Assembly (NCBI GenBank): GCA_963735785.1
Contig: CAVTMH010000001.1
Span: 78,824 to 142,823 of the forward strand
Direction of reading: 5' to 3'
Source: an uncultured Chloroflexia bacterium
GTDB taxonomy: Bacteria > Chloroflexota > Limnocylindria > Limnocylindrales > CSP1-4
DNA: 64,000 nt
Every line of letters starts with the position of its first letter. Position 1 is the first letter of the stretch. Positions 2,217 through 7,514 of the stretch are shown here, in pieces. Under the pieces are notes generated by a model. The model had not been told where the DNA came from. It did no database searches and worked only from the letters and a program-made list of their open reading frames with translations. A program made the translations under genes and the position numbers.

Positions 2217-3329
2217 TCAGAACGTGGACTCGACCGCGTGCGAGCGTCCGTCGGCGATCGATTCGTACGCCGCGAGCGTGATCTCAAGCACGTGCCGCGC
2301 GTGCTCCGCTGTGAGGACCGGTTCGGTCTCGCCGCCCAGGCAGTCGATGAAATGCCGTACGCCGGCCTCGACGACCGCGACATCGTCCGCCGGGATCTCG
2401 ATGCCGTGCTGCCATCCCTCGCGTGCCAAAGGGCTGTCGTCGTCGACGTAGAGGCTGACCGGGTCGGCAGCGTCGTAGCCCGGGCCACTGAAGCTGAGCG
2501 TGGCCATCGGGAAATGCAGCTCGAGCCACGGCGCGAGACTGCTCGGTGTGCCGAAGCTCGCCAGCAGCTGACCCAATGCGCCATCGGCGAACTGCAGGTT
2601 GATCAGGACGTGGTCTGGCGTCGTGACCTCGATGGTCTTGCCGGCGAGCGGCCCGCCGCGGACAACCCTGGCGGGCGTCGCGACCGCGCCCATGGCCTGG
2701 ACCCGCACGACGGGTCCGAGCAGCATCGTGAGCGCGTGCAGGCGATACACGCCGTGATCGAAGACGGGGCCCACGCCCTCCCGGTAGAACGGCGTCGGGT
2801 CGCCCGTGTACTCGCGCCACGCGGCCGGGCCGGGATCCGCGTGATGCGTGACCGCCAGCGTCGGGTGGCCGTACCGACCGGAGGCGATCAACTCGGCGAT
2901 CCAGCGGAAGCGAGCCGTCACGGCGACGCCCGGCGCACACAGGAACGAAACGCCACGCCGGGCGGCCGAGGCGATCAGCGCGTCGGCTTCGGCGACCGTG
3001 CCCCCGAGCGGCTTCTCCGAGTACAGGTGCAGGCCGGCCTCGAGGATCGCCGCGTTGATCGTGCCGTGGCGTGGGGCCGGGGCCAGGTCGATGGCGGCCT
3101 CGGCGACGCCGTCGGCCAGCATCGCCTCGAGATCGGTGTAGGGCGCCGCCCGGGGCGACCAGTCCGCGACGCTTGCGGCCGCCCGCTCCGCGGCGCCGGG
3201 TCGCGGGTCCACGAACGCGGTGATGGCGACCCCGCCGGCGAGCTCCGCCAGCGCGGGCAGGTAGTGGCGGTACGCCACGTCGCCGGCGCCGACGATGGCG
3301 AGCCGTAGCTTTGGGGCGGCGGCAGGCAT
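2217..3329 (-). CDS. Gfo/Idh/MocA family oxidoreductase
   Basis: Rossmann IVGAGDVA, SEKP and DHGVY motifs. Confidence 0.9.
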   Translation of the reverse strand: MPAAAPKLRLAIVGAGDVAYRHYLPALAELAGGVAITAFVDPRPGAAERAAASVADWSPRAAPYTDLEAMLADGVAEAAIDLAPAPRHGTINAAILEAGLHLYSEKPLGGTVAEADALIASAARRGVSFLCAPGVAVTARFRWIAELIASGRYGHPTLAVTHHADPGPAAWREYTGDPTPFYREGVGPVFDHGVYRLHALTMLLGPVVRVQAMGAVATPARVVRGGPLAGKTIEVTTPDHVLINLQFADGALGQLLASFGTPSSLAPWLELHFPMATLSFSGPGYDAADPVSLYVDDDSPLAREGWQHGIEIPADDVAVVEAGVRHFIDCLGGETEPVLTAEHARHVLEITLAAYESIADGRSHAVESTF

Positions 3330-3382
3330 GGGCGGAGCCTACCCGCCGCCGACGCCGGTTGCCGGGCGACCCCGGCTCGGCA

Positions 3383-4720
3383 TTACGCCGCGGATTCCTC
3401 CACGGGCTCGCCAACCTCGATCGGGTTGTTGATCGGGTCCTGGCTCCATTCGAACCAGCCCCCGTCGTACACCGCAACCCGCGGCCAGTCCTGCAGGTAC
3501 GCGTAGAACCAGGTCTCACTGGCCCGCCAGCCGGTGCCGCAGTAGAACGCCACCCACTTGTCGGCGGTGATCCCGGCCTCGGCCCAGTGGGCCGCGATCT
3601 CCGGGTACGCACGCATCGTGTTGTCGACGTTGCGGTAGTGCTGCATGTGGTACGCGTCCGTCCCGCAGTTGCCCCAAACGTCGCCCTTGATGCGGCCCGC
3701 CGGGCCGATGTAGTTGTAGCCGCTGACGTTGCCGATGTGCTCGCGCCACGTCCGGATGCTCACCAGGGCCGCGCCCTCGGGGTCGGCGATGATCTGCTTG
3801 GCCTCGTCGATGTCGACGATGACCTCGGGGCGGAGTGGGATCTGCACCCCGAAGCTCGCGACCGGTGTCGGCTCCCGCAGGAACGTCTCGACGGGATTGC
3901 CGCTCCGGACCCACCAATCGTACCCGCCGTCGAGCAGGCGGACGTCGTCGACGCCTGCGTAGCGGAGGATCATCAACGCGCGCGTGGCGGCGATCTGACC
4001 CGCCCGGCGGCCGGGCCACTTCTCGTTCGCGTGACCCTCGGTGTCGCGGCCGTAGACCACGATCGTCGTGTCGTTGGTGATCCCCAGGGCGCGCAACGCG
4101 ATCTCGAGCGCCTCGGGCGAACGGCGGTTCCAGTCGGCCGGGTCCTCGAGCCAGTTGGTGTCGAGGTAGACCGCTCCCGGGATGTGCGCCTCCGCGTACT
4201 CCTCGGGCACCCCGAAGTTGACGTGGAAGAGGAGGAATTTGCCTTCGGGCGCCGCCTCGGGACGCTCGCCCGCGAGGACCCCCCGCAGCCAGTCGATGTG
4301 GACCAGCCGGTCGTACCTGGGGAGGCGATCGATCGGCAGGTCCGGATCGGCCGCCCAGGCGGTGAAGCCATCGGTATACACACGCACGTGCTCGATGCCA
4401 AGGCTGGCCAGGCTCGTCGCGACCGCGTCGGCCTCGGCGAGGGCCGTGCCGTAGACGACCACCTCGCGGCCGGGGACAACCCCCTTCTCGTCGAGGATGC
4501 GCCGGATCTCCGGAGCGTCCACGCTGGTCAGCCAGGCGCTCGGGAATGCCACAGCGCCAGGGATGTGGCCGCCGCGTGCCTCGCCGTCGAGGCGCCAGCC
4601 GTTGTAGCCCGTCAGCGGCCGCGCGTCGATGACGGTCAGGTCGGGATCGCCGAGACGGTCGCGGAGTTCGGTGGTGGAGATCCCCGGTCGCTCGGTCGCG
4701 ACCTCGTGGAGGATGGTCAT
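3383..4720 (-). CDS. Three-domain rhodanese sulfurtransferase, YnjE-like
   Basis: GHIPGA and AHIPGA repeats, active-site loop YCGTGWRAS (CGTGWR as in YnjE), C-terminal YDGGWFEWS. Confidence 0.9.
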   Translation of the reverse strand: MTILHEVATERPGISTTELRDRLGDPDLTVIDARPLTGYNGWRLDGEARGGHIPGAVAFPSAWLTSVDAPEIRRILDEKGVVPGREVVVYGTALAEADAVATSLASLGIEHVRVYTDGFTAWAADPDLPIDRLPRYDRLVHIDWLRGVLAGERPEAAPEGKFLLFHVNFGVPEEYAEAHIPGAVYLDTNWLEDPADWNRRSPEALEIALRALGITNDTTIVVYGRDTEGHANEKWPGRRAGQIAATRALMILRYAGVDDVRLLDGGYDWWVRSGNPVETFLREPTPVASFGVQIPLRPEVIVDIDEAKQIIADPEGAALVSIRTWREHIGNVSGYNYIGPAGRIKGDVWGNCGTDAYHMQHYRNVDNTMRAYPEIAAHWAEAGITADKWVAFYCGTGWRASETWFYAYLQDWPRVAVYDGGWFEWSQDPINNPIEVGEPVEESAA

Positions 4721-4755
4721 GTCGCCGTGTCCCTCGTCGGTGGTGCGGTCCTGGG

Positions 4756-4785
4756 CAAAACAAAGACCCCTGCCCGGCAGGGGTC
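4756..4785 (-). terminator. Intrinsic terminator of leader attenuator
   Basis: Minus strand GACCCCTGC-CGG-GCAGGGGTC followed by TTTGTTTTG, 35 nt upstream of the sulfurtransferase start. Confidence 0.85.
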
Positions 4786-4825
4786 GGAAGGTGCGTGGCG
4801 TGCGGGATTCATGCTGATCGCACGC

Positions 4826-4897
4826 CTAGGTACACCACCTGCCCTGCTCGGCGAGGGTGGGACAGGGACAGCACACGGCGGTCGCGTGACGGTGCAT
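4826..4897 (-). CDS. Cys-rich leader peptide (23 aa) MHRHATAVCCPCPTLAEQGRWCT
   Basis: Hand-translated ATG..TAG uORF with Cys at positions 9, 10, 12 and 22, upstream of the terminator and a sulfur-transfer gene. TGT-CACACT extended -10-like element at 4907-4915. Confidence 0.75.
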   Translation of the reverse strand: MHRHATAVCCPCPTLAEQGRWCT

Positions 4898-4951
4898 CGT
4901 CGGCGGAGTGTGACAGTCGATGCCGGTTCTGGCAACCCTGGTTCTCGGCGG

Positions 4952-5464
4952 TCACCCCGCCGCGAGGATCCAGTGGTTGCAGCGCAAGAGGCGGCCGGCA
5001 TATTCGACGACCTCCTCCCCGAGGTTCGCGAACCCGGCCTTGCGGCAGACGGCATTCGACGGCCCGTTCGTCACGCCCGGAAAGGCGTGGATGTCGCCCC
5101 AGCGCCCGTCCGAGACGGCTCGCTCGAGCAGCAGGCGCAGCGCTTCCGTGGCGAGACCGCGGCCCTGGAACTCGTGCAGGATCGCCCAACCCGCCTCGCT
5201 TCGCTGACCGCCGTCGACCGCATCCGACCAGAGACAGATCGTGCCGACGGCGTGGTTCTCAGGCTCGAGCTCGATCGTGAAGTACCACAGGCGATCCGCT
5301 GCCATCCCCTCGAGACGTCGCTGGTGGATGCCGGGGATGTCGGCGGGCGGCAGGGGCCCACCGAGGTCTGCCATCATCACCGGGCTCGTCTCGATCGACT
5401 CGGTCAGCCAGCGATCGGCGTCGGTGTACGGCCGGAGTCTGATCGACGGTCGGGGCGACGACAC
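4952..5464 (-). CDS. GNAT (RimJ/RimL-type) N-acetyltransferase
   Basis: EAGWAILHEFQGRGLATEA and NGPSNAVCRKAGF. GTG start 6 nt after TATCGT. Confidence 0.85.
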   Translation of the reverse strand: MSSPRPSIRLRPYTDADRWLTESIETSPVMMADLGGPLPPADIPGIHQRRLEGMAADRLWYFTIELEPENHAVGTICLWSDAVDGGQRSEAGWAILHEFQGRGLATEALRLLLERAVSDGRWGDIHAFPGVTNGPSNAVCRKAGFANLGEEVVEYAGRLLRCNHWILAAG

Positions 5465-5527
5465 GCATGCACGATAGCGGAGCCCGACCGGCGCGTCCCG
5501 TGGACCTCGGCTACGCTCGGCGACGTC

Positions 5528-5938
5528 ATGCCGACACGACAATTCGCCATCCGTCTGGGTGCTCGGTCAAGGCTGGTGCTGCGCCTGTTCGGGGTGCGCG
5601 GGCCGGACGACGCCTGGGTCGACCTCGGCGACGAGGCCCTCGAGGCCCGGTTCGGGCGGTTCGGGGCCACCAGCCCCGTCTCGAACATCGTCGGCTGGCG
5701 GATCGAGGGGCCGTGGCGCTGGATCACCGCGATCGGCGTCCGGCGCAGCGTACGTCATGGCGACGTCACGTTCGGCGGTTCGCATCGCGGCGGCGTGCGG
5801 CTCGACTTCGCCGAACGAGTCCGGGTCGGGCCATTCCGGACGCCGGCCTTGTACGTCTCGGTCGAGGACCTCGAGGGCCTGGCGGCGGCGCTCGCGGCCC
5901 GCGGGATCGCCGGGGTCGATGCGCGCCGAGCCGGCTGA
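5528..5938 (+). CDS. Hypothetical protein
   Basis: ATG 5528, MPTRQFAIRLG...; protein-like end of the long 3311..5938 ORF, with GC3-biased codons. Confidence 0.7.
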   Translation: MPTRQFAIRLGARSRLVLRLFGVRGPDDAWVDLGDEALEARFGRFGATSPVSNIVGWRIEGPWRWITAIGVRRSVRHGDVTFGGSHRGGVRLDFAERVRVGPFRTPALYVSVEDLEGLAAALAARGIAGVDARRAG

Positions 5939-6007
5939 CCGCTGCAACGGTACGGTATGCGTCCGGGACTGACGTTGAGACCCGACCCGCCGGAGGCTAT
6001 CCGCACC

Positions 6008-6649
6008 GTGAACGAGACCACCGACCATGAGCCGACGACCCGTGCGGACCGCGCGCTCGACGCCGGGACCCTGGTGGCCAAGATGGCGACCATCGGATTC
6101 GGGATCGATGCGCTGATCAACCACGCCTCGCCACGGTTGCGGGGCAAGGCCATCCGGACGCGCGCCATCGGCTACACGGCGGCGCTGCTGCTCGTCCCCC
6201 TGGCCTGGCGCTTGCTGCCCGGTCCGCGCGACCCGTACCCGCGCGCGCTGGACCTGGCGGTCACGGTGCCCTTGCTCGCGGACGCGGCGGGGAACGCCTT
6301 CGGCATCTACGAGCGGGTCCGCGTCGACGACGCCGTCCATGTCGCCAATGCGGCGATCCTCGCCGGCGTCACCGGTTCGCTGATCGCGCCGCATGTCGAC
6401 GAGCGGTGGCAGGCGGCACTCGCGGGCGGGGCGATCTCGATCGCCGCCGAGACCCTGTGGGAGACCATGGAATACGTGGCGTGGCGGTTGGGCCAGGACG
6501 GCATGGACCTGACGTACGAGGACACCATGGACGACATCATCGGCACATGGGTCGGTGCGGTCGCGGGCGCGGCCTACATCCTGACCCGAGCGCCGCGCCA
6601 CAAGTCCACGCGCGTTCGGCGTGGCTGGCGCGCCATCCTGGGTGCCTGA
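6008..6649 (+). CDS. Membrane protein, DUF2238-like putative metal-binding hydrolase
   Basis: GGAGG then GTG 6008. Several TM segments with DDAVH, WETMEY and EDTMDD motifs. Confidence 0.7.
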   Translation: MNETTDHEPTTRADRALDAGTLVAKMATIGFGIDALINHASPRLRGKAIRTRAIGYTAALLLVPLAWRLLPGPRDPYPRALDLAVTVPLLADAAGNAFGIYERVRVDDAVHVANAAILAGVTGSLIAPHVDERWQAALAGGAISIAAETLWETMEYVAWRLGQDGMDLTYEDTMDDIIGTWVGAVAGAAYILTRAPRHKSTRVRRGWRAILGA

Positions 6650-7514
6650 TCCGCTGCGGCTCACCTGGATCGGTCACTCGACAGTCCTGCTGGAGCTGGC
6701 CGGCCGTCGGTTCCTGACCGATCCATTCCTGCGCGATCGTCTCGGCCCGTTGCGCCGACGGGGACCGTCGGTCGACGTCGACGCCATCGGCAGGCTCGAC
6801 GCTGTCCTCCTGTCCCACGCCCACCCCGACCACTTCGACCGGCGATCGATCCGGCGGCTCCAGGGCGACCCGGTGATGATCGTGCCGGCAGGTCTCGGCC
6901 GAGTCGTGGAGCGGATGGGGTTCTCGGCCCACGAGCTGGCGGAAGGCGAGCGACGGACGGTCGGCGGCCTCGGGGTGACGGCGGTTCCGGCCCACCACGG
7001 ACGCTGGCCGCCTCACCGCGGCGCGGCTACCCTGGGCTACCTCATCGAGCGGTCACCGAGCTCCCCGAGCGTCTACTTCGCCGGTGACACCTCGGCGTTC
7101 GCGGGGCTCGGGGCGCTGGCCGGGCAGGTGGACGTTGCGCTGCTGCCGATCGGGAGCTGGGGACCGCATTCGGCGCCCTGGCATCTGGGCCCGCGAGGCG
7201 CCGCCAGGCTGGCCGACACGATCGGGGCTCGCGTGGTCGTGCCGATCCACTGGGGCACGCTCTACCCGGCCGGCCTGGCGCGCGTCTGGGGCGGACCGCT
7301 GGACAAGCCGGGCATCCAGTTCCGCGGCGCGTGCTCGGAACTGGCAAGGGGGACGGAGCTGCGGCTGCTCGCCCCGGGTGAGGGCACGACGGTGCAGCTC
7401 CCGAACGTGCCCCGGGCGCGTCGCCGGTCAGATCCGGCGGACCACCATGCCCAGGAGGAGGAGCACGGTCGCGACGACGAACGCGAGGATGCCGAGCTGG
7501 TCGGACACGACTGA
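6642..7514 (+). CDS. MBL-fold metallo-hydrolase
   Basis: TWIGHST, LTDP, SHAHPDHFD, YFAGDT and PIHWGT motifs. Confidence 0.88.
   Translation: MPDPLRLTWIGHSTVLLELAGRRFLTDPFLRDRLGPLRRRGPSVDVDAIGRLDAVLLSHAHPDHFDRRSIRRLQGDPVMIVPAGLGRVVERMGFSAHELAEGERRTVGGLGVTAVPAHHGRWPPHRGAATLGYLIERSPSSPSVYFAGDTSAFAGLGALAGQVDVALLPIGSWGPHSAPWHLGPRGAARLADTIGARVVVPIHWGTLYPAGLARVWGGPLDKPGIQFRGACSELARGTELRLLAPGEGTTVQLPNVPRARRRSDPADHHAQEEEHGRDDEREDAELVGHD

What the first reader, a model, noticed from the sequence alone, without database searches (positions are those of the whole stretch)
4756..4915. Cysteine-sensing leader peptide with a trp-style transcription attenuator upstream of a YnjE-type sulfurtransferase
Seen: an unannotated 23-aa uORF (4897-4826), MHRHATAVCCPCPTLAEQGRWCT, 9 nt after a TGT-CACACT -10-like element and without an SD. 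Four segments pair in mutually exclusive ways. Segment 1, CUGUCCCUGU (4871-4862, over the Cys codons), pairs with segment 2, GCAGGGCAG (4847-4839). Segment 2 can instead pair with CCCUGC of segment 3 (4785-4777), brought close by an 8-bp hairpin GGCGUGCG/CGCACGCC (4826-4819/4804-4797). Segments 3:4 form a 9-bp terminator followed by UUUGUUUU. Established: ribosome-stalling attenuation (trp), and poly-Cys leaderless uORFs regulating sulfur genes in mycobacteria. Inference: Cys-tRNA shortage stalls the ribosome on segment 1, frees 2:3 and allows read-through into the sulfurtransferase. This suggests a role in sulfur acquisition for cysteine synthesis, in a lineage where I know of no such attenuator.
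Basis: partly seen in the sequence, partly recalled or inferred. Interest (0 to 1): 0.82.

Follow-up and report, generated by a model that had tools for sequence, protein, structure and literature searches.

The report
Cysteine-sensing leader peptide transcription attenuator
A tiny cysteine-rich reading frame and a switchable stop signal lie before a sulfur-transfer enzyme gene in soil Chloroflexota, and probably switch the gene on when cysteine runs short; the mechanism is a known kind, seen here in a new lineage and before a new gene.

Summary
On the minus strand, a conserved promoter is followed 9 nt later by an ATG with no Shine-Dalgarno sequence. This opens a 23-codon uORF (4897-4826) with Cys codons 9, 10, 12 and 22. 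A hairpin starts at its stop codon, and a 9-bp terminator with a U-tract ends 36 nt before the sulfurtransferase gene. The same leader stands before the same gene in 24 of 29 orthologous loci of the genus, in 57 named Limnocylindrales MAG species, and in 15 of 49 sampled genera of the family. The C-x-C codons keep a fixed distance from a GCAGGG box that can pair with the terminator's 5' arm. Cys makes up 14.2% of leader residues against 0.78% in the genome. The hairpin after the stop covaries. The antiterminator pairing is kept (96-99%) but does not covary. The enzyme is closer to the ergothioneine synthase EanB than to YnjE, yet no EanA/EgtD partner was found in 81 family genomes. Cys-codon uORFs with terminators were already predicted before cysS in Rhodobacterales, so this is a new member of a known kind. 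There are no expression data.

The parts
4930..4935 (-). -35 box TTGCCA
   Evidence: In 72 distinct leaders my picker's best -35 hexamer began with TTG in 67, and the spacer was 17-18 nt in 69.
4907..4915 (-). Extended -10 box, TGT-CACACT
   Evidence: My picker was biased towards NANNNT and chose such a hexamer in 72 of 72. It ended 8-12 nt before the ATG (8: 19, 9: 41, 10: 9, 11: 2, 12: 1). TG stands at the extended position in 42 of 72. The transcription start is not mapped.
4826..4897 (-). Leader ORF of 23 codons, MHRHATAVCCPCPTLAEQGRWCT, no SD
   Evidence: The ATG is at the aligned column in 72 of 73 distinct complete leaders, and the frame is kept to the conserved stop in 70 of 73. Indels in the variable N-terminal part come in threes.
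4862..4873 (-). Regulatory Cys codons 9, 10 and 12 (TGC TGT CCC TGT), the conserved C-x-C
   Evidence: At least 2 Cys codons lie upstream of the GCAGGG box in 70 of 73 leaders. The C-x-C codons end 20 and 14 nt before the box in nearly all. Cys is 14.2% of leader residues against 0.78% of genome codons. TGT:TGC is 190:56 in leaders, against 17.7% TGT in the genome.
4834..4847 (-). Antiterminator 5' strand, tandem GCAGG-GCAGG-UGGU, inside uORF codons 17-22
   Evidence: Register 1 (GCAGGG with CCCUGC) is pairable in 98.9% of cells over 74 sequences and 96.2% across genera. Register 2 (GCAGGUGGU with ACCCCUGC) is pairable in 96.3%. Neither covaries. The codon before CAG varies at its first two bases but keeps its third-base G. 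The rare Arg codon AGG (5.4% of Arg codons in the genome) is kept.
4832..4834 (-). Conserved penultimate Cys codon (TGT), two codons before the stop
   Evidence: Present at the aligned position in most leaders, as TGC in L111. Its role is unexplained.
4797..4826 (-). Hairpin P2 that starts with the last base of the stop codon (GGCGUGCG, 14-nt loop, CGCACGCC)
   Evidence: Covaries. 4 of 7 pairs change on both sides in 74 sequences, with 0 of 500 shuffles as high. 5 of 7 pairs and 27 cells do so in 31 cross-genus sequences. These alignments were fitted to the model's structure, which leans towards it.
4786..4796 (-). C-rich spacer between P2 and the terminator
   Evidence: It can extend the antiterminator duplex (median -20.45 against -12.0 kcal/mol for the arm alone). 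Shuffled spacers do nearly as well (-19.5), and only 2 of 74 beat 95% of shuffles. Only its composition is supported.
4757..4785 (-). Intrinsic terminator: 9-bp stem GACCCCUGC/GCAGGGGUC, loop CGG, then UUUGUUUU
   Evidence: 98.6% of cells are paired in 74 sequences and 98.1% across genera.
4730..4735 (-). Shine-Dalgarno GAGGGA of the sulfurtransferase gene
   Evidence: Sequestration by the Cys-codon region is not conserved: median duplex -12.0 against -12.6 kcal/mol for shuffles, and 8 of 80 beat 95% of shuffles.
3383..4720 (-). Regulated gene: 445-aa sulfurtransferase with three rhodanese domains (EanB/YnjE family)
   Evidence: Pfam Rhodanese, 3 stretches. PDB 6h98/6ktv E 3e-120 and YnjE E 3e-89. 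The alignment keeps the Tyr, Cys and Arg that fit EanB Tyr353, Cys412 and Arg417 (residue names from PMC10903977).

Best explanation
This is a ribosome-mediated (leader-peptide) transcription attenuator that reads the supply of charged tRNA-Cys and controls an EanB/YnjE-family sulfurtransferase.

Transcription starts at a conserved sigma-70-type promoter, a few bases before, or at, an ATG that has no SD. A ribosome translates a leader of 21-24 codons.

- Cysteine plentiful (inferred): the ribosome runs over the tandem GCAGG-GCAGG-UGGU box (codons 17-22) to the stop codon and melts hairpin P2, which begins there. The box is then covered when RNA polymerase makes the terminator, so ACCCCUGC pairs with GCAGGGGU and transcription ends at the U-tract.
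- Cys-tRNA scarce (inferred): the ribosome stalls on the C-x-C codons, 14-20 nt upstream of the box. The box is free and pairs with the terminator's 5' arm as soon as that arm emerges, with P2 closing the loop. The terminator cannot form, and polymerase reads into the sulfurtransferase gene.

Shown here: the anatomy, its conservation, the Cys-codon enrichment and spacing, covariation of P2, and preserved pairing potential of the terminator and antiterminator. Inferred: translation of the uORF, stalling, the timing, and the response to cysteine. In my reading the switch has three elements. An untranslated leader is predicted to read through, unlike the E. coli trp leader.
For: 1. Anatomy at the stated coordinates.
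2. Conservation with the gene.
   - 24 of 29 orthologous loci in the genus carry the leader.
   - 57 named MAG species hold the exact core pattern. For 50, my script confirmed the same sulfurtransferase downstream. Three had too little flank, and in 4 my ORF picker gave no hit.
   - Model R2 finds it in 34 of 151 family genomes, in 15 of 49 genera. 29 of 31 aligned cross-genus leaders precede the same gene.
   - Neighbouring genes are not conserved: GFO downstream in 6 of 29 loci, GNAT upstream in 4 of 29.
   - There is a single copy in the own genome.
3. Coding signature. ATG is at the aligned column in 72 of 73 leaders and the frame is kept in 70 of 73. The N-terminal part varies freely with indels in threes. 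At least 2 Cys codons lie upstream of the box in 70 of 73, with both TGT and TGC used. Cys is 14.2% of residues against 0.78% in the genome.
4. Geometry. The C-x-C codons end 14 and 20 nt before GCAGGG, and the stop codon begins 19 nt after the first base of the box (13 nt after its last base). A ribosome stalled on the Cys codons leaves the box free, and one at the stop covers it.
5. Folding of RNA cut before the terminator's 3' arm. The 5' arm pairs with a uORF stretch in 22 of 24 leaders when a ribosome sits on the last central Cys codon, with GCAGGG or a close variant in 21 and GCAGGUGGU in 1. It does so in 5 of 24 when a ribosome sits on the stop.
6. RNA-level constraint inside the ORF. 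The third-base G of the variable codon before CAG is kept. The rare AGG codon and the GGC codon are kept.
7. P2 covaries.
8. One lineage (L170) changed GCAGGG to GCCAGG together with CCCUGC to CCUGGC. This keeps six pairs in the antiterminator, while the new G has no partner in the terminator's 3' arm (my reading of the printed rows).
9. In some species a homologous sulfurtransferase gene (paralogue or orthologue, 40-76% identical) sits behind a second conserved leader that is shared with MetY-like Cys/Met enzymes. This places the enzyme in sulfur-assimilation control.
Against: - There are no expression data. No RNA run holds the stretch, and the transcription start, 3' ends and translation are all unmapped.
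- The antiterminator shows no covariation in a fixed register. Both strands are almost invariant, so the pairing is compatible but unproven.
- At equilibrium the terminator conformer is more stable, by a median of 4.1 kcal/mol over 24 leaders. Four rows gave 0.0 (in L015, L020 and L021 the box lay inside the masked stretch), so those rows are uninformative. Read-through must therefore rest on co-transcriptional kinetics.
- The -10 box ends 8-12 nt before the ATG, so the mRNA probably has a 1-4 nt leader rather than none. Initiation there without an SD in Chloroflexota is assumed.
- Only two non-adjacent Cys codons are conserved. L013 and L163 have a single central Cys.
- The conserved Cys codon two codons before the stop would, if it stalled a ribosome, cover the box and favour termination. 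Its role is unexplained.
- 3 of 73 leaders break the frame or use another start (L064, L087, L113). L169 is frame-shifted. These may be assembly indels.
Confidence: 0.7

Rival explanations
1. A true trp-style four-segment attenuator. The Cys-codon segment 1 pairs with segment 2 as an anti-antiterminator, so an untranslated or released leader terminates.
For: CUGUC-type words in the Cys region can pair with GGCAG: 87.4% of cells are pairable. A local CUGCC/GGCAG hairpin is pairable in 91.9%. TGT is preferred over TGC (190:56 against 17.7% TGT in the genome), which could reflect pairing of the U.
Against: One of the six pairs forms in only about half of the sequences, and nothing covaries. In 22 of 24 leaders the minimum-energy fold of free RNA, cut before the terminator's 3' arm, still pairs a uORF stretch with the terminator's 5' arm rather than with segment 1. 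That stretch is GCAGGG or a close variant in 20 and GCAGGUGGU in 2. The window's own sequence lacks the CUGCC word.
Confidence: 0.12
2. The small Cys- and His-rich peptide is itself the product, for example a metal- or persulfide-binding partner of the sulfurtransferase. The terminator then only sets the ratio of peptide to enzyme.
For: The C-x-C motif, the penultimate Cys and the QGRWC tail are conserved in the genus. His is 9.0% of residues against 2.3% in the genome, and some leaders read HHHCMCH. Leader peptides with functions in trans are known (peTrpL, PMC7298713, abstract seen in the listing).
Against: Across genera the tail varies as a peptide (RWC, RRC, SRC, RCC, GSC, RAA) while the RNA box stays. 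The N-terminal half is free to vary. His enrichment is limited to one clade. Synonymous positions are constrained by RNA pairing. Nothing excludes a dual role.
Confidence: 0.08
3. A riboswitch or protein-binding RNA. The three-way junction (2:3 helix, P2, spacer) binds a sulfur metabolite or a protein, and the ORF is incidental.
For: The GCAGGGCAGGUGGUGU box and the P2 stem are almost invariant within the genus, more so than a plain helix needs. No Rfam family matches, so an undescribed aptamer is not excluded.
Against: The ATG, frame and stop are kept in 70 of 73 leaders. Cys codons are kept with synonymous changes and small shifts of position. Loops, junctions and spacer vary freely, so there is no conserved unpaired core of the kind aptamers have. 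The invariance is explained by one strand having to pair with two partners while also coding.
Confidence: 0.06
4. A TnaC-like arrest peptide. The conserved C-terminal residues stall the ribosome at the stop codon in response to a small molecule, and the position of that ribosome decides termination.
For: The conserved tail lies next to the stop. TAG is the stop in 61 of 73 leaders. Hairpin P2 abuts the stop.
Against: The tail is not conserved as a peptide across genera. TAG becomes TGA where the first P2 base changes, so the stop follows the hairpin sequence. A ribosome held at the stop would cover the box and give termination, so an inducer would switch the gene off. This does not explain the upstream C-x-C at fixed spacing.
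Confidence: 0.04

Closest known systems
uORFC-8-2 motif before cysS in Rhodobacterales (Brewer et al. 2021, PMC8632094; passage read)
   Same: A predicted ribosome-mediated attenuator: a conserved AUG, a short uORF with conserved Cys codons, two stems and a U-run read as an intrinsic terminator. The proposed logic is that low Cys-tRNA gives read-through.
   Different: It belongs to another phylum and is a different sequence family. It has tandem Cys codons at positions 14-15, inside the first stem, and regulates cysteinyl-tRNA synthetase. Here the conserved motif is C-x-C, the start has no SD and lies next to the promoter, a hairpin abuts the stop, and the gene is a three-rhodanese sulfurtransferase. 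I could not score the window against that motif's model. The Rfam scan found no family.
Polycysteine leaderless short ORFs of mycobacteria (Canestrari et al. 2020, bioRxiv 10.1101/834739; abstract and sections 9 and 10 read)
   Same: Unannotated short ORFs without an SD at the 5' end of the mRNA, with Cys codons as sensors, placed before sulfur and cysteine metabolism genes and shown to respond to cysteine.
   Different: The studied Ms5788A case acts on translation, by unmasking the downstream ribosome-binding site. The authors contrast it with terminator-based attenuation and leave the mechanism of the other loci open. Here there is a conserved intrinsic terminator, and sequestration of the SD by the Cys region is not conserved. 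They required at least two consecutive Cys codons, and here C-x-C is the conserved form. Mycobacteria have several such loci, whereas this genome has one.
Candidate cys leader peptides in Actinobacteria (Seliverstov et al. 2005, PMC1262725; passages read)
   Same: Short ORFs with runs of Cys codons before cys or cbs operons.
   Different: The authors found no terminator hairpins and suggested Rho. Here the terminator is the best conserved part.
E. coli trp operon attenuator (recalled textbook knowledge, no call)
   Same: A leader peptide with regulatory codons. Ribosome position chooses between an antiterminator (2:3) and a more stable terminator (3:4).
   Different: I find no supported 1:2 anti-antiterminator. 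The start has no SD and lies at or next to the 5' end. The predicted behaviour of an untranslated leader is read-through.
EanB, the oxygen-independent ergothioneine synthase of Chlorobium limicola, and YnjE of E. coli (for the regulated gene)
   Same: Three rhodanese domains. The best solved relatives are 6h98/6ktv (E 3e-120, residues 14-439) and then YnjE (E 3e-89). The Tyr, Cys and Arg that fit EanB Tyr353, Cys412 and Arg417 are kept (PMC10903977 passages).
   Different: The PDB titles say only 'Sulfurtransferase'. That 6h98/6ktv are EanB is my recollection, supported only by the numbering offset of 15. No EgtD/EanA-type histidine methyltransferase (PF10017) was found in the own genome or in any of 81 family genomes searched, so a complete ergothioneine pathway is not evident. 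EanB-like enzymes of unknown function are noted in PMC9516567 (passage read).

Membership tests
Leader-peptide (ribosome-mediated) transcription attenuators | Short translated ORF in the 5' leader, enriched in codons for the sensed amino acid | tested here: met
   The 23-codon ORF is conserved in frame in 70 of 73 leaders. Cys is 14.2% of residues against 0.78% in the genome. Translation itself is not shown.
Leader-peptide (ribosome-mediated) transcription attenuators | Intrinsic terminator between the leader ORF and the structural gene | tested here: met
   A 9-bp GC-rich stem plus UUUGUUUU, paired in 98.6% and 98.1% of cells.
Leader-peptide (ribosome-mediated) transcription attenuators | Antiterminator that shares a strand with the terminator and is exposed or covered according to ribosome position | tested here: inconclusive
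   Pairing potential is kept in 96-99% of cells, and the geometry and folds fit. There is no covariation in a fixed register. One lineage (L170) shows matched changes.
Leader-peptide (ribosome-mediated) transcription attenuators | Anti-antiterminator (segment 1:2) as in the trp, his and leu leaders | tested here: not met
   87.4% pairable, with one pair forming in about half of the sequences, and no covariation. It does not compete in folds. It is not needed for the class, only for the trp-type subform.
Leader-peptide (ribosome-mediated) transcription attenuators | Read-through rises when the cognate amino acid or charged tRNA is limiting | not testable with these tools
   The organism is uncultured, and no RNA run holds the stretch.
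Mycobacterial polycysteine leaderless short ORFs (translational attenuators) | mRNA starts at the AUG or GUG (leaderless) | tested here: inconclusive
   The -10 box ends 8-12 nt before the ATG, which suggests a 1-4 nt leader or none. The transcription start is not mapped.
Mycobacterial polycysteine leaderless short ORFs (translational attenuators) | At least two consecutive Cys codons | tested here: not met
   The window has CC, but the conserved motif is C-x-C, and many leaders have no adjacent Cys codons.
Mycobacterial polycysteine leaderless short ORFs (translational attenuators) | [quoted passage not shown] | tested here: not met
   The window's minimum-energy fold does pair GUCCCUGUC with the SD region. 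Over 80 leaders, however, the duplex is no better than shuffles (median -12.0 against -12.6 kcal/mol; 8 of 80 beat 95% of shuffles).
EanB (ergothioneine synthase) | Catalytic Tyr353, Cys412 and Arg417 equivalents | tested here: met
   The alignment to 6h98_A keeps Y, C and R at chain positions 338, 397 and 402, which is an offset of 15. Residue roles come from PMC10903977. The identity of 6h98 as EanB is recalled.
EanB (ergothioneine synthase) | Co-occurrence with the histidine methyltransferase EanA/EgtD, which supplies trimethylhistidine | tested here: not met
   PF10017 was found in 0 of 1 (own genome, 91.7% complete) and 0 of 81 family genomes.
YnjE-type three-domain rhodanese | Three rhodanese domains with a C-terminal active-site Cys loop | tested here: met
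   Pfam Rhodanese in 3 stretches. YnjE chains 3ipo/2wlr match at E 3e-89 over residues 21-441, which is weaker than the 6h98/6ktv match.

The most novel reading that the evidence does not exclude
The leader marks this EanB-like enzyme, which lacks an EanA/EgtD partner, as a cysteine-starvation gene. In that reading its job is not to make ergothioneine. It would instead win sulfane sulfur for cysteine synthesis, from polysulfide or thiosulfate, or by running the EanB chemistry backwards on ergothioneine-like thio-imidazoles released by soil fungi and actinobacteria. The His runs next to the Cys codons in one clade would then make sense. Together with the second conserved leader found before MetY-like, OsmC-like and rhodanese genes in the same genus, Limnocylindrales would run sulfur metabolism through ribosome-sensed leaders rather than through protein regulators.
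Probability: 0.12. Interest if true: 0.75.

Novelty: new member of a known kind. Interest (0 to 1): 0.48.

Why it matters
- It gives a well-defined, comparatively well-supported cis-regulator for an uncultured soil lineage (Limnocylindrales, Chloroflexota). In the listings of three literature searches I saw no leader-peptide attenuator described for this lineage.
- It offers a functional hint for an EanB-like sulfurtransferase of unknown role. Being switched on by cysteine shortage points to sulfur acquisition rather than to antioxidant synthesis.
- The predicted 'read-through by default, termination only when translated' behaviour can be told apart from the trp scheme with a start-codon mutant.
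- It is not a new principle. Cys-codon leaders are proven in mycobacteria and predicted with terminators in Rhodobacterales.

Tried and rejected
1. Rfam scan of window 4300-5400 at E up to 10 gave only chance-level hits, so no known riboswitch or leader is present.
2. The local CUGCC/GGCAG hairpin is pairable in 91.9% of cells but is absent in the window itself.
3. Extension of the antiterminator into the C-rich spacer is no better than shuffled spacers.
4. SD sequestration by the Cys region (mycobacterial model) is suggested by the window's own fold but is not conserved.
5. Equilibrium folds of full leaders with masked ribosome footprints gave mixed results. The terminator is usually more stable, so only a kinetic reading works.
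6. Other copies in the own genome: model R1 found none beyond this locus at E below 0.01. My scan for Cys-rich short ORFs before terminators found only this one.
7. Expression: the look-up of sequencing runs listed no RNA holder. The best DNA holders share at most 0.19 of words and the three possible RNA runs 0.05. I did not lay reads, because contigs cannot show RNA ends. No RNA holder is listed, and this is no evidence either way.
8. Terminator as the end of the upstream GNAT gene: rejected. GNAT is upstream in only 4 of 29 loci, while the leader always travels with the sulfurtransferase.
9. Ergothioneine pathway: PF10017 was not found.
10. A literature search for the PDB codes together with EanB found nothing, so that identification stays recalled.
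12. Supplementary files of the cited papers were not opened. Table S3 of Canestrari et al. and the motif files of Brewer et al. might hold related leaders that I could not see.
13. The tally (34 of 151) includes one match in the unpublished genome G297. No sequence of it was read or used.
Full report
**Observation.** I read window 3000-5400 on the minus strand and listed the ORFs. The layout is as follows:
- a GNAT acetyltransferase gene (5542-4952; Pfam);
- a 231-nt spacer;
- a 445-aa protein with three rhodanese stretches (4720-3383);
- a GFO/IDH/MocA oxidoreductase gene (3329-2217).

- TTGCCA (4935-4930), a 17-nt spacer, then TGT-CACACT (4915-4907);
- nine bases later an ATG (4897) with no SD;
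- a 23-codon ORF, MHRHATAVCCPCPTLAEQGRWCT, ending in TAG (4828-4826);
- the hairpin GGCGUGCG/CGCACGCC (4826-4819 and 4804-4797);
- the terminator GACCCCUGC-CGG-GCAGGGGUC followed by UUUGUUUU (4785-4757).

The terminator is the only terminator-like site in 3000-7000. Rfam has nothing here. Folding energy alone is not unusual (z = -0.66).

**Lineage and distribution.** The window lies in a 3.1-Mb, 3-contig genome with 70% G+C. An exact search for the core pattern in one genome per GTDB species found 57 records. Almost all are titled Candidatus Limnocylindrales, 'uncultured Chloroflexia' or Chloroflexota soil MAGs, and a few carry other bin labels. So the lineage is Chloroflexota, not Actinobacteria.
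- Within the genus, orthologues of the sulfurtransferase (62-96% identity, some broken by frameshifts) were found in 29 of 37 genomes. 24 of these 29 loci carry the leader.
- The five without it are L009, L025, L026, L028 and L029. L009 keeps the promoter, a stop-hairpin remnant and the terminator but has lost the ORF. L026, L028 and L029 carry a different leader, described in the paragraph 'A second leader'.
- A covariance model of the leader found one copy in the own genome and strong matches in other genera of the family.
- A second model found it in 34 of 151 family genomes, in 15 of 49 genera. This tally includes one match in the unpublished genome G297, which I did not read.
- The gene downstream is the same sulfurtransferase in 50 of 57 pattern hits. 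Three had too little flank, and four gave no hit with my crude ORF picker and were not examined further. It is also the same gene in 29 of 31 cross-genus leaders.
- The neighbours are not conserved: GFO in 6 of 29 loci and GNAT in 4 of 29. The leader and the sulfurtransferase form one unit.

**Is the ORF real?** I examined 73 distinct complete leaders.
- 72 have ATG at the aligned column, and 70 stay in frame to the conserved stop.
- The exceptions are L064 and L087, which have 1-nt indels and are long-read MAGs, and L113, which starts at another ATG.
- Lengths are 21-24 codons in 68.
- The N-terminal part varies at all codon positions, with indels in threes.
- At least two Cys codons lie upstream of the GCAGGG box in 70 of 73. 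The conserved form is C-x-C, and TGC and TGT are both used.
- Across genera the motif persists in varied forms (CMCC, CICPCPCP, CSCP, CTCR, CLCCLCP, CCCPC).
- Cys is 14.2% of leader residues against 0.78% of codons in 1,355 long ORFs of the genome.
- TGT is used 190 times against 56 for TGC, although TGT is only 17.7% of genomic Cys codons. This points to an extra RNA-level or decoding constraint.
- The promoter is conserved. My picker's best -35 hexamer began with TTG in 67 of 72, and the spacer was 17-18 nt in 69 of 72. The -10 box ended 8-12 nt before the ATG. The mRNA is therefore leaderless or has 1-4 untranslated bases, and this is unmapped.

**RNA structure.**
- The hairpin that begins at the stop codon (P2) covaries. 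Four of 7 pairs change on both sides in 74 sequences, with 0 of 500 shuffles as high. Five of 7 pairs do so in 31 cross-genus sequences. Examples are GCGUGCG/CGCACGC becoming GCGCGGG/CCCGCGC, GCGCCGG/CCGGCGC and GCGUGUG/CACACGC. These alignments were fitted to the model, which leans towards the structure.
- The terminator is paired in 98-99% of cells and hardly varies.
- The antiterminator can form in two registers. GCAGGG (4847-4842) with CCCUGC (4782-4777) is pairable in 98.9% and 96.2% of cells. GCAGGUGGU (4842-4834) with ACCCCUGC is pairable in 96.3%. Neither shows covariation. That is expected if one strand must pair with two partners while the other also codes, but it leaves the pairing unproven.
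- Indirect support comes from three observations. The codon before CAG varies in its first two bases (GAG, ATG, GTG, AAG, AGG, GGG, ACG) but keeps its third-base G, which is the first base of the box. The rare Arg codon AGG (5.4% of Arg codons in the genome) is kept inside the second GCAGG. In L170, GCAGGG became GCCAGG while CCCUGC became CCUGGC, and the new G has no partner in the terminator's 3' arm.

**Mechanism.**
- The C-x-C codons end 20 and 14 nt before the box, and the stop begins 19 nt after its first base. A ribosome with a Cys codon in its A site would therefore leave the box just free. One at the stop would cover register 2 fully and register 1 in part, and would melt P2.
- In RNA cut before the terminator's 3' arm, the 5' arm pairs with a uORF stretch in 22 of 24 leaders with a ribosome masked on the last central Cys codon. 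That stretch is GCAGGG or a close variant in 21 and GCAGGUGGU in 1. The same count, 22 of 24, holds with no ribosome, and it falls to 5 of 24 with one on the stop.
- With the full RNA at equilibrium, the terminator conformer wins by a median of 4.1 kcal/mol (four rows uninformative). By my recollection the same holds for the E. coli trp leader. The choice must therefore be kinetic.
- I conclude that this is a three-element switch set by ribosome position. It predicts that an untranslated leader reads through.
- Sequestration of the SD by the Cys region, the mycobacterial mechanism, appears in the window's own fold but is not conserved.

**The gene.**
- The best solved relatives are 6h98 and 6ktv, both titled only 'Sulfurtransferase' (E 3e-120), and then E. 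coli YnjE (E 3e-89).
- I recall 6h98/6ktv as EanB of Chlorobium limicola. A search of the paper library for these codes found nothing.
- The alignment does place Tyr, Cys and Arg at chain positions 338, 397 and 402. With an offset of 15, these match the Tyr353, Cys412 and Arg417 named for EanB in PMC10903977.
- No EgtD/EanA-type methyltransferase (PF10017) was found in the own genome or in 81 family genomes. A complete ergothioneine pathway is thus not evident.
- The regulatory logic suggests a role in winning sulfur when cysteine is short. This is an inference.

**What is known.**
- Canestrari et al. (bioRxiv 10.1101/834739; abstract and sections 9 and 10 read) proved cysteine-responsive leaderless polycysteine ORFs in mycobacteria. 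The studied case acts on translation.
- Seliverstov et al. (PMC1262725; passages read) found cys leader peptides without terminators in Actinobacteria.
- Brewer et al. (PMC8632094; passage read) predicted a Cys-Cys uORF with a terminator before cysS in Rhodobacterales.
- The listings of my searches showed no such element in Chloroflexota or before an EanB/YnjE-type gene. This covers only the held library and only listings.

The element is therefore a new member of a known kind.

**A second leader (noticed in passing).**
- In L026, L028 and L029 a homologous sulfurtransferase gene follows a different conserved leader. It has a promoter, then a GTG or ATG about 9 nt later, then a uORF of about 22 codons ending ...MCMRWRPRRAEDGV, then a long structured region and a strong terminator.
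- Its core pattern occurs in 51 of 131 genomes of the genus. It lies before MetY-like Cys/Met PLP enzymes, OsmC-like proteins, a beta-carbonic anhydrase and rhodanese proteins.
- It has no Rfam match.
- A diverged copy lies in the own genome outside the window, at contig C3 about 2007400-2007640.

**Verdict.** Confidence in Cys-sensing, ribosome-mediated transcription attenuation is 0.7. The main gap is the complete lack of expression or biochemical data.

Noticed in passing
Outside the window: G000 contig C3 about 2007400-2007640 (-), locus L091. Also L026, L028, L029 and L125-L154.: A second, unrelated conserved leader is found in 51 of 131 genomes of the genus. It has an SD-less uORF (...MCMRWRPRRAEDGV), a long structured region and a strong terminator. 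It lies before MetY-like Cys/Met PLP enzymes, OsmC-like proteins, a beta-carbonic anhydrase and three-rhodanese sulfurtransferases, and it has no Rfam match. It is a candidate new sulfur-related attenuator or riboswitch.
   Followed up: partly
window 4832-4834 (-): A Cys codon two codons before the leader's stop is conserved in most leaders and across genera, once as TGC. A ribosome stalled there would cover the antiterminator box and favour termination. I have no explanation for it.
   Followed up: partly
Loci L005, L007, L016, L017, L031, L033, L040, L042, L052-L054, L074, L079 and others: One clade of leaders has runs of 3-5 His codons directly before the C-x-C (for example HHHHCMCH). His is 9.0% of leader residues against 2.3% in the genome. 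This is curious next to an enzyme related to one that acts on a histidine derivative, but it is not conserved across genera.
   Followed up: partly
L009 (G009:C162): An orthologous locus keeps the promoter, a stop-hairpin remnant and the terminator but has lost the whole leader ORF. This is either a natural deletion, which under my model should leave the gene terminated or differently regulated, or an assembly fault.
   Followed up: no
Whole genome G000: My strict scan found only 69 intrinsic-terminator-like sites (perfect stem of at least 6 bp plus a T-run) in 3.1 Mb at 70% G+C. Canonical terminators seem rare in this organism, which makes the one in the leader stand out.
   Followed up: no
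window 3330-3382 (-): The 53-nt gap between the sulfurtransferase stop and the GFO/IDH/MocA gene holds a GC hairpin (GCCGGG-GUCG-CCCGGC) with no T-run. The two genes may be co-transcribed here, but this neighbour is present in only 6 of 29 loci.
   Followed up: partly
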